Positions 51,205 to 51,353 of a DNA stretch of 64,000 nt are shown here, piece after piece (within the stretch, counting starts at the first letter, position 1; the number at the start of each line of letters is the position of its first letter). Under the pieces are notes generated by a model that saw only the letters and a list, made by a program, of their open reading frames with translations, did not search any database and was not told the DNA's origin. The stretch is taken from UHGV virus genome UHGV-2202118. One strand, 5' to 3'. A program made the translations under genes and the position numbers. Origin of the DNA: a virus.

Positions 51205-51353
51205 CATTAAATTATCTTTGTAGATAAGCTACCCAGACTTGCTTAAGGTCTGTAGCGATGTGCCTTTTTGGGTTTAAATCTAGAATTTACCCTTTCACCC
51301 TTTGTGGTCGCATACTCACAGGTAAGCTTAATAACTTATCTACAAAGATAATT

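What the first reader, a model, noticed from the sequence alone, without database searches (positions are those of the whole stretch)
51211..51350. Perfect 17-bp inverted repeat pair flanking a 106-bp segment in the tRNA array
TTATCTTTGTAGATAAG at 51211-51227 is the exact reverse complement of 51334-51350. The enclosed segment has its own CCAGAC...GGTCTG hairpin. This could be a very long stem-loop in the tRNA precursor or the terminal inverted repeats of a miniature inserted element.
Basis: seen in the sequence. Interest (0 to 1): 0.55.

Follow-up and report, generated by a model that had tools for sequence, protein, structure and literature searches.

The report
Structured small RNA beside phage tRNA-Lys
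The inverted repeat is the closing helix of a conserved, pseudoknotted ~145-base non-coding RNA that Felix O1-type phages carry just upstream of their own tRNA-Lys gene, next to a Y-RNA-like tRNA mimic and a Ro60-like protein gene; it is not an inserted mobile element, and its function is unknown.

Summary
The repeat is real.

The window is a Felixounavirus and the tRNAs are on the minus strand. In that sense the repeat is helix P1 of a ~145-nt RNA (51206-51354) that ends 4-5 nt before tRNA-Lys(UUU).

Four sequence-unrelated versions occupy the same position: V1 (196 phage records), V2 (60), V3 (Pectobacterium phages) and V4 (Yersinia phage P778). All four keep:
- a 22-29 bp P1;
- a hairpin with the loop CUU(A/U)AGCAA;
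- a covarying pseudoknot, GCUUA:UAAGC versus GCUAA:UUAGC.

G·U pairs are abundant only in the tRNA sense. I found no target-site duplication, no second copy and no precise empty site, so it is not a MITE. Rfam has no match.

V1 and V2 behave as allelic cassettes swapped within P1.

The neighbours matter. Block B (51355-51486) is a YrlA-type permuted tRNA mimic. The ORF at 52462-53877 folds like Ro60.

Most likely this is a discrete stable small RNA released by tRNA-type processing, with P1 as an end clamp and possibly an RNase III site. Its function is unknown.

The parts
51206..51354 (-). Whole element ('block A', version V1): a ~149-nt structured RNA domain read on the minus strand. RNA position i corresponds to window coordinate 51355 - i.
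   Evidence: Fold z = -5.1. It is 98.8% identical among 17 V1 loci. The same-position homologues V2, V3 and V4 are shown. Rfam has no match.
51330..51353 (-). P1, 5' strand in the RNA sense (AAUUAUCUUUGUAGAUAAGUUAUU).
   Evidence: On the V1+V2 alignment, 24 pairs are 98.3% paired and 4 pairs change on both sides.
51210..51233 (-). P1, 3' strand in the RNA sense (GGUAGCUUAUCUACAAAGAUAAUU). It ends 4 nt before tRNA-Lys.
   Evidence: Its G·U pairs exist only in the minus-strand sense.
51234..51252 (-). P4 hairpin: stem CAGAC/GUCUG with the 9-nt loop CUUAAGCAA.
   Evidence: The stem covaries: CAGAC/GUCUG (V1), CAGACC/GGUCUG and CAAACC/GGUUUG (V2), CCAUC/GAUGG (V3), AAAGUC/GACUUU (V4). The loop keeps ...U(A/U)AGCAA.
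51241..51245 (-). Pseudoknot, loop strand (UAAGC, inside the P4 loop).
   Evidence: It pairs with GCUUA at 51323-51327. V2 and V4 have UUAGC with GCUAA, a compensatory change. V3 has UAAGCAA(G) with (C)UUGCUUA.
51323..51327 (-). Pseudoknot, 5' strand (GCUUA), two nt after the 5' strand of P1.
   Evidence: The partner always lies 0-6 nt after P1 in all four lineages.
51270..51292 (-). P3 hairpin with the 7-nt loop UUCUAGA (U plus the palindrome UCUAGA). AUUCUAGAUU is invariant in V1 and V2.
   Evidence: Invariant columns are listed. V3 and V4 have a hairpin with the loop UAACGUU (U plus the palindrome AACGUU). The role of this hairpin is inferred only.
51255..51311 (-). Tentative P2: GCGA at 51308-51311 pairing with UCGC at 51255-51258, enclosing the central domain.
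   Evidence: Read directly from the sequences. V2 has GAGU/ACUC at the equivalent place. This is not column-consistent in the MAFFT alignment, so it was not counted formally.
51130..51205 (-). Context: tRNA-Lys(UUU), immediately 3' of the element.
   Evidence: The same juxtaposition (2-5 nt) is seen in V1-V4.
51355..51486 (-). Context ('block B'): a YrlA-type permuted tRNA mimic. The order is anticodon-like arm, T arm, 7-bp closed acceptor-like stem, D arm, all closed by the stem GACCGUU/AACGGUC with the flanking motifs CAGCAA and CUGGUAA.
   Evidence: A consensus of 15 such modules from 11 loci that carry a Ro-like gene has compensatory changes in 10 of 13 pairs.
52462..53877 (-). Context: 471-aa Ro60-like protein (DUF2828 plus a vWA domain) at the head of the tRNA array, on the same strand.
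   Evidence: Pfam and PHROG 850 'RNA-binding protein'. The AlphaFold2 model has pLDDT 86.8. The top 11 Foldseek PDB hits are all Ro60/TROVE proteins.

Best explanation
The inverted repeat is the closing helix (P1, 22-24 bp) of a conserved, pseudoknotted non-coding RNA domain of about 145 nt. The domain is transcribed on the minus strand as part of the phage's tRNA operon. It lies between a Y-RNA-like tRNA mimic and tRNA-Lys(UUU).

**Shown.** It is an RNA-level structure on the tRNA strand. Selection maintains it across Felixounavirus, Mooglevirus, Suspvirus, the Pectobacterium Ounavirinae and Yersinia phage P778. Its position 2-5 nt upstream of tRNA-Lys(UUU) is fixed.

**Inferred.** I infer that it is cut out of the polycistronic precursor as a discrete small RNA by the tRNA-processing machinery. 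RNase P cleavage at the 5' end of tRNA-Lys would set its 3' end. Processing of the upstream tRNA-like module would set its 5' end. The long P1 helix would lock both termini into a duplex that resists exonucleases and makes the domain fold independently of neighbouring tRNAs. At 22 bp or more, P1 is also long enough to be an RNase III site.

The function of the released RNA is unknown. Its strict linkage to tRNA-Lys(UUU), rather than to the Ro60-like gene, suggests a role connected with that tRNA or with the array. V1 and V2 are alternative alleles exchanged by recombination within the conserved outer part of P1.
For: **Identity of the window.** It is a Felixounavirus, and all 15 tRNAs are on the minus strand.

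**The same architecture at the same place, in unrelated sequences.**
- V1: 196 records.
- V2: 60 records in Mooglevirus, Suspvirus and some Felixounavirus.
- V3: Pectobacterium phages Wc4-1, Arno18 and Arno162, with a 27-nt repeat.
- V4: Yersinia phage P778, with 21-nt arms ending 4 nt before tRNA-Lys(UUU).

**Helices.**
- P1 is 22-29 bp in every lineage.
- Sense-strand G·U pairs number 3-6 per sequence. Only one A·C mismatch is seen among 28 sequences.
- On the V1+V2 alignment, 97.1% of cells are paired and 5 pairs change on both sides. Slid controls give 26-49%.
- The P4 stem covaries and its loop is conserved.
- The pseudoknot shows a compensatory switch, GCUUA:UAAGC versus GCUAA:UUAGC.

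**Conservation.** Block A is 98.8% identical among V1 loci, against 83% for tRNA-Asp.

**A natural mutant.** Phage ESCO50 has two deletions that remove the flanking tRNAs and block B but leave block A intact.

**Allelic swap.** Between V1 and V2b the outer part of P1 is 100% identical, the interior 52%, and the next 275 nt 98.2%.

**Precedent.** T4 makes two stable RNAs, rnaC and rnaD, from its tRNA cluster. That RNase P defines such ends is established knowledge of tRNA processing.
Against: - There are no expression or end-mapping data. Transcription, excision and stability are all inferred.
- No function is demonstrated.
- Phage SP116 is a viable isolate that lacks the element, together with most of tRNA-Lys and half of block B. 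The element is therefore dispensable under laboratory conditions.
- Kolesnikvirus phiEa21-4 lacks this family and has a different long-stem element elsewhere in its array.
- The central domain differs between lineages, and I could not derive a single consensus fold for it. P2 is tentative.
- A near-perfect 24-bp duplex might simply be destroyed by RNase III rather than serve as a clamp.
Confidence: 0.6

Rival explanations
1. Pure processing stalk. P1 exists only as an RNase III site that splits the long precursor between the Y-RNA-like modules and the tRNA-Lys-Met-Ile block, as the stalks flanking 16S and 23S rRNA do. On this view the enclosed ~100 nt is a passenger.
For: P1 is 22-29 bp and nearly perfect in all four lineages. 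That is the length class of RNase III substrates, which is established knowledge. Other long-range helices flank elements of the same array, for example 50280-50292 / 50381-50393 around tRNA-Ser and 50036-50125.
Against: The interior is not free to drift. The P4 loop, the pseudoknot and the P3 loop are conserved or covary across lineages. The interior is 98.8% identical within V1. ESCO50 retains the element although the RNAs it would separate are deleted.
Confidence: 0.15
2. Second Y RNA. Block A is a Y-RNA-type partner of the phage's Ro60-like protein. Its long 5'-3' stem would be the protein-binding stem and the pseudoknotted head an effector-binding module.
For: A Ro60-like gene heads the operon on the same strand, about 1.1 kb away. 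Y RNAs are defined by a terminal stem, and bacteria and phages often encode two adjacent Y RNAs near Ro60 (PMC4201824, PMC12135203). Block A abuts a YrlA-type module. The P4 loop shares AGCAA with the CAGCAA motif of those modules.
Against: Pectobacterium phage Wc4-1 has block A but no Ro-like gene anywhere in its 92-kb genome, and no CAGCAA/CUGAUAA module near its tRNAs. Other phages with a Ro-like gene, tRNA arrays and YrlA-like modules lack block A. Block A has no GNCGAA motif, no bulged helix and no T or D arm.
Confidence: 0.12
3. DNA-level element. The repeat is a cruciform or a binding site for a dimeric protein (the palindromes TCTAGA and CTTAAG lie inside), acting in replication, recombination or packaging.
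For: V1 has a near-perfect repeat and palindromic hexamers. The allelic swap is bounded exactly by the outer arms.
Against: In V2, V3 and V4 the helix contains 3-6 G·U pairs each. These would be A·C mismatches on the other strand and asymmetric in a DNA cruciform. The pseudoknot covariation has no DNA-level rationale.
Confidence: 0.04
4. Miniature inverted-repeat transposable element, or a remnant of one, inserted in the tRNA array.
For: It has terminal inverted repeats and a small size (about 144 bp). An HNH homing endonuclease lies elsewhere in the array, at 49569-50021.
Against: There is no target-site duplication. There is one copy in the window and one place per record in all but one of 196 phage records (199 places in all). 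No precise empty site exists among about 260 related records. The arms covary as an RNA helix.
Confidence: 0.02
5. Part of a protein-coding gene. Several GenBank records annotate a 'hypothetical protein' here.
For: A 107-aa ORF lies on the + strand at 51258-51581. Several records carry such annotations.
Against: The ORF length varies (84-107 aa) within V1, and the ORF is absent in V2 phages. It runs antisense through a tRNA-like module.
Confidence: 0.01

Closest known systems
Phage T4 species 1 and species 2 RNAs (rnaC, rnaD)
   Same: They are small stable RNAs of unknown function, encoded inside a phage tRNA cluster on the tRNA strand and directly abutting a tRNA gene. They have the same size class (139 and 119 nt).
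   Different: There is no sequence or structural resemblance. rnaC folds as a tRNA-like RNA with a canonical T arm, and rnaD is weakly structured. Block A has a 24-bp terminal helix and a pseudoknot, and no T or D arm.
Y RNAs / YrlA with Ro60 (bacterial, mycobacteriophage and Thermus phage phiLo systems; PMC4201824, PMC12135203)
   Same: Block A has a terminal 5'-3' stem closing a structured head. It lies on the same strand within about 1.1 kb of a Ro60-like gene and adjacent to a true YrlA-type module.
   Different: Block A lacks the GNCGAA motif, a bulged helix and tRNA-like arms. It also occurs in a phage with no Ro-like gene. It is the neighbour, block B, that fits YrlA.
RNase III processing stalks (rRNA operon stalks, T7 early-region sites)
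   Same: It is a long-range duplex of two helical turns or more that brackets an RNA inside a polycistronic transcript.
   Different: The bracketed RNA here is only ~100 nt and carries its own conserved tertiary pairing. Cleavage is untested.
Miniature inverted-repeat transposable elements (MITEs)
   Same: Short terminal inverted repeats around a ~100-bp non-coding core.
   Different: There is no target duplication, no multiplicity and no empty site. The arms evolve by compensatory RNA-type substitutions.

Membership tests
MITE / transposon terminal inverted repeats | Target-site duplication flanking the repeats | tested here: not met
   The flanks are CCATTA|AATTATC... and ...GATAATT|ACCAGA, with no direct repeat.
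MITE / transposon terminal inverted repeats | Multiple dispersed copies | tested here: not met
   The arm sequence is found only in this pair in the 64-kb window. There is one place per record in all but one of 196 phage records (199 places in all).
MITE / transposon terminal inverted repeats | Presence/absence polymorphism with a precise empty site | tested here: not met
   V1 occurs in 196 records and V2 in 60, out of about 261 records with the tRNA region. SP116 lacks the block through a 251-bp deletion between two T-arm repeats. ESCO50 keeps it while its flanks are deleted.
Y RNA / YrlA | Ro60 orthologue encoded nearby on the same strand | tested here: inconclusive
   This is met in the window and in P778. 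It is not met in Wc4-1, which has block A and no Ro-like gene.
Y RNA / YrlA | Terminal stem formed by the 5' and 3' ends | tested here: met
   P1 is 22-29 bp.
Y RNA / YrlA | GNCGAAN0-1G (CGAA) motif or bulged helix in the protein-binding stem | tested here: not met
   There is no such motif in block A, and P1 is uninterrupted in V1. The phage modules that flank Ro-like genes use CAGCAA ... CUGAUAA instead, and block A lacks these at its stem.
Y RNA / YrlA | tRNA-like module (T arm, closed acceptor-like stem, D arm) | tested here: not met
   It is absent from block A. It is present in the neighbouring block B.
Y RNA / YrlA | Physical binding to Ro60 | not testable with these tools
   This needs RIP or EMSA.
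RNase III substrate | Duplex of about 20 bp or more | tested here: met
   24 bp in V1, 22-26 in V2, 29 in V3 and 25 in V4.
RNase III substrate | Cleavage by RNase III; absence of antideterminant base pairs | not tested
   There is no cleavage assay or validated predictor among the tools.
Stable RNAs of phage tRNA clusters (T4 rnaC/rnaD type) | Encoded within the tRNA cluster, co-oriented, abutting a tRNA | tested here: met
Stable RNAs of phage tRNA clusters (T4 rnaC/rnaD type) | Accumulates as a discrete stable RNA | not testable with these tools
   This needs Northern blots or RNA-seq.
Any Rfam 15 family | Covariance-model match | tested here: not met
   Block A has no hit at E up to 1 over 5 kb, nor at E up to 10 over 446 nt with lax filters.

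The most novel reading that the evidence does not exclude
Block A is a previously undescribed class of phage small RNA that works together with the phage-encoded tRNA-Lys(UUU). For example, it could protect or substitute for that tRNA's anticodon arm against host tRNA-Lys-directed defence nucleases. In V1 the P4 stem CAGA/UCUG and the loop start CUU copy the tRNA-Lys anticodon arm. Alternatively it could oligomerise through the palindromic P3 loop. On this reading the two allelic forms, V1 and V2, reflect an arms race.
Probability: 0.15. Interest if true: 0.75.

Novelty: new variant of a known kind. Interest (0 to 1): 0.55.

Why it matters
Phage tRNA arrays are usually annotated as tRNAs plus 'spacers' or spurious ORFs. 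Here one spacer is shown to be a structured RNA under strong selection, with a pseudoknot, two circulating alleles and a fixed partnership with tRNA-Lys(UUU). It has no Rfam family and no known function.

It also lies in an operon headed by a Ro60-like protein and containing YrlA-type tRNA mimics. That makes Felix O1-type phages, which are easy to grow and have natural deletion mutants, a tractable system for two questions. One is what phage Ro60/Y-RNA systems do. The other is what extra RNAs phages add to their tRNA sets. tRNA-Lys is a frequent target of bacterial anti-phage nucleases, so the linkage to it is a testable lead.

Tried and rejected
- **Rfam.** Two cmscan runs gave nothing for block A and only a sub-threshold tRNA hit for block B.
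- **T4 rnaC/rnaD.** I fetched and folded both. Neither resembles block A.
- **MAFFT alignment of all four lineages (A3).** It is not structure-consistent for the 5' strand of P1. Cross-lineage helix tallies were therefore made by script, and formal pair counts only on V1+V2. I built no covariance model.
- **Pattern scans for more V3/V4-like relatives** (GTGTAACGTTCAC N35-65 TWAGCAAG). The scan found 0 matches in IMG/VR. The 4 metagenome matches carry no tRNA genes and look like protein-coding sequence, so I take them as chance matches.
- **P4-motif and long-stem scans upstream of tRNA-Lys(UUU)** in 80 other loci with a Ro-like gene. Block A occurs only in the Felixounavirus loci and P778.
- **phiEa21-4.** It has no block A. 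A different 13-nt perfect repeat brackets 151 nt between tRNA-Ala and tRNA-Met there, and homology is not established.
- **Promoter or terminator role.** No consensus site falls inside block A.
- **ORF hypothesis.** Rejected.
- **Literature.** The searches found no description of small RNAs in Felix O1-type tRNA arrays, nor any link between DUF2828 and Ro60. The supplement of PMC4201824 is not held.
- **Ideas considered and dropped.** I compared hammerhead/twister-type ribozymes and phi29 pRNA from memory only. I dropped them for lack of any matching core, and no model hit supports them.

Full report
**1. The observation**

The window is a Felix O1-type myovirus (Felixounavirus). An 801-bp query around the finding matches 259 phage records, up to 99.8% identical. 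ARAGORN finds 15 tRNA genes between 49245 and 52296, all on the minus strand.

The finding lies in the 428-nt gap between tRNA-Lys(UUU) (51130-51205) and tRNA-Asp (51634-51711).
- The exact 17-mer is at 51212-51228 and, reverse-complemented, at 51335-51351.
- The complementarity extends to 22-nt arms (51210-51231 / 51332-51353, 95%).
- Counting G·U pairs in the minus-strand sense, it reaches 24 bp.
- Chance does not explain it: 0.03 matches are expected in shuffles, and the fold z-score is -5.1.

**2. It is a conserved RNA structure, not an insertion**

Relatives fall into four groups. All carry an element of similar size at the same place, ending 2-5 nt before the 5' end of tRNA-Lys(UUU).

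| Version | Where found | Closing-repeat arms |
|---|---|---|
| V1 (the window's form) | 196 records, Felixounavirus | 22 nt |
| V2 | 60 records: Mooglevirus, Suspvirus and some Felixounavirus | read by eye in the sequences; the helix is 23-26 bp |
| V3 | Pectobacterium phages Wc4-1, Arno18, Arno162 | 27 nt |
| V4 | Yersinia phage P778 | 21 nt |

The P1 sequences of V3 and V4 are unrelated to those of V1 and V2. V1 and V2 share the outer dozen or so bases of each arm and differ further in. Even so, P1 is 22-29 bp in every lineage.

Formal counts on 20 distinct V1+V2 sequences:
- 97.1% of cells form standard pairs, against 26-49% when the partner strand is slid by 1-3 columns.
- Five pairs change on both sides.

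P1 holds 3-6 G·U pairs per sequence in the tRNA sense, and only one A·C mismatch appears among 28 sequences. The selected pairing is therefore in a minus-strand RNA. It is not in duplex DNA or a plus-strand transcript.

**3. Internal anatomy**

RNA position i corresponds to window coordinate 51355 - i.

- **P4.** Its 9-nt loop is conserved as C(U/C)U(U/A)AGCAA.
- **Pseudoknot.** Five loop bases are complementary to a stretch 0-6 nt after the 5' strand of P1. The pairing is GCUUA:UAAGC in V1 and V3, and extends to 7-8 bp in V3. It is GCUAA:UUAGC in V2 and V4, a compensatory switch that supports a pseudoknot.
- **P3.** This hairpin has a 7-nt loop made of U plus a palindromic hexamer: UCUAGA in V1/V2 (AUUCUAGAUU is invariant) and AACGUU in V3/V4. 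I note this but cannot interpret it.
- **Central domain.** It differs between lineages, and the P2 helix I propose is tentative.
- **Rfam.** No family matches.

**4. Tests of the mobile-element reading**

- There is no target-site duplication.
- There is no second copy.
- No precise empty site exists in any relative.
- Phage SP116 lacks the block because of a 251-bp deletion. Its ends lie in the T arm of tRNA-Lys and the T arm of block B.
- Phage ESCO50 has two deletions that remove tRNA-Ile, tRNA-Met, most of tRNA-Lys, block B and tRNA-Asp, yet leave block A intact.
- The 107-aa plus-strand ORF that some records annotate is not conserved.

**5. Allelic cassettes**

Some Felixounavirus genomes carry V2b where the window has V1. 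Between the two:
- the outer 12-15 nt of each P1 arm are 100% identical;
- the interior is 52% identical;
- the next 275 nt are 98.2% identical.

The interior has therefore been exchanged, presumably by recombination within the conserved outer part of P1. The exchange preserved the architecture.

**6. Context found on the way**

- **A Ro60-like gene.** The ORF at 52462-53877, on the minus strand at the head of the array, is DUF2828 plus a vWA domain. Its AlphaFold2 model has pLDDT 86.8. The 11 best PDB matches are all Ro60/TROVE proteins, including bacterial Rsr and the Thermus phage phiLo Ro60. Homologues occur in 710 phage records, and some are annotated 'Ro-like RNA binding protein'.
- **Link to tRNA arrays.** Among 77 diverse IMG/VR loci with this gene, 24 have same-strand tRNAs within 4 kb downstream. 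None has opposite-strand tRNAs there.
- **Permuted tRNA mimics.** Many of these loci carry such mimics on the same strand. The order is T arm, then a 7-bp closed acceptor-like stem, then a D arm. That is the order described for YrlA Y RNAs (PMC4201824). The modules are flanked by a closing stem with CAGCAA after its 5' strand and CUGAUAA after its 3' strand. A consensus of 15 modules has compensatory changes in 10 of 13 pairs.
- **In the window.** Block B (51355-51486) is such a module. Two shorter modules with the same flanks lie at about 51500-51572 and 51902-51961.

**7. Is block A itself a Y RNA?**

Probably not.
- Wc4-1 has block A but no Ro-like gene in its whole genome, and no CAGCAA module near its tRNAs.
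- Other phages with a Ro-like gene lack block A.
- The invariant partner of block A is tRNA-Lys(UUU).

**8. Mechanism**

*Shown.* Block A is a selected RNA fold on the tRNA strand, closed by P1 and fixed next to tRNA-Lys.

*Inferred.*
- The domain is released from the precursor by tRNA-type punctuation. RNase P would cut at 51205/51206, and processing of the upstream tRNA-like module would set the other end.
- P1 would act as an end clamp and folding insulator, and possibly as an RNase III site.
- T4 rnaC and rnaD are the nearest functional precedent. They are not homologues.

The function is unknown. I rate the 'structured RNA' core at about 0.9 and the whole scenario at 0.6.

**9. Verdict**

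The 'long stem-loop in the precursor' reading is supported, and the 'miniature inserted element' reading is rejected. Block A is an undescribed RNA motif of a known general kind, namely non-tRNA structured RNAs inside phage tRNA clusters. Its genomic context is informative: a Ro60-like gene plus YrlA-like RNAs.

Noticed in passing
window 52462-53877 (-): This 471-aa ORF at the head of the tRNA array is DUF2828 plus a vWA domain. Its AlphaFold2 model matches Ro60/TROVE structures over the full length, and the top 11 PDB hits are all Ro60 proteins. Homologues occur in 710 phage records. No paper in the held library links DUF2828 to Ro60.
   Followed up: yes
window 51355-51486 (-): 'Block B' is a circularly permuted tRNA mimic: anticodon-like arm, T arm, 7-bp closed acceptor-like stem, then D arm. 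It is closed by GACCGUU/AACGGUC and flanked by CAGCAA and CUGGUAA. The same YrlA-type architecture and flanking motifs recur next to Ro-like genes in at least 11 diverse phage contigs. ARAGORN does not call it, and some GenBank records call it a pseudo-tRNA.
   Followed up: yes
window ~51500-51572 (-) and ~51902-51961 (-): Two shorter modules have the same ends as block B (CAGAAGACC-N5-CAGCAA ... GGUCUGG) but no tRNA-like insert. Their stems covary (CCGU/ACGG versus CCAA/UUGG). They may be minimal Ro-binding RNAs.
   Followed up: partly
L122 (Escherichia phage ESCO50) and L123 (Salmonella phage SP116): These are natural deletion variants of the array. ESCO50 keeps block A but loses tRNA-Ile, tRNA-Met, most of tRNA-Lys, block B and tRNA-Asp. 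SP116 fuses the T arm of tRNA-Lys to the T arm of block B and so loses block A. Both are ready-made mutants.
   Followed up: yes
window 49569-50021 (-): A 150-aa HNH endonuclease ORF sits inside the tRNA array, between tRNA-Leu and tRNA-Ser. It is probably a homing endonuclease.
   Followed up: partly
window 50036-50125; 50280-50292 / 50381-50393; 50209-50223 / 50509-50523: The same array holds other long-range helices. One is a hairpin with 26-nt arms. A 13-nt repeat brackets tRNA-Ser exactly, and a 15-nt repeat lies 285 nt apart around it. These look like further processing stems.
   Followed up: no
L035 (Erwinia phage phiEa21-4) 22311-22487: A 13-nt perfect repeat, extending to a helix of about 25 bp that contains GGUCUGG/CCAGAGCC, closes a ~150-nt structured stretch between tRNA-Ala and tRNA-Met. 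The fold z-score is -4.0. It lacks the P4 loop motif, so homology to block A is not established. No Ro-like gene is found in the first 50 kb of this genome.
   Followed up: partly
L037 (Yersinia phage P778) 7647-7838 and ~9010-9150: A 27-nt inverted repeat closes 138 nt between the Ro-like gene and the first tRNA. Separately, a tRNA-like gene has matching acceptor strands (GCGGGUG/CACCUGC), a D arm and a T arm, with a ~70-nt insertion in the anticodon/variable region.
   Followed up: no
window 53960-54331 (-), 47199-48815 (-), 45716-47191 (-): The Ro-like gene and the tRNA array lie between a DUF5681 protein and two large ORFs of 538 and 491 aa. I take these two to be the terminase large subunit and the portal protein, from their sequences and from the matching gene order annotated in phiEa21-4; neither was searched. 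The whole RNA cassette is therefore embedded at the start of the packaging/structural module.
   Followed up: no
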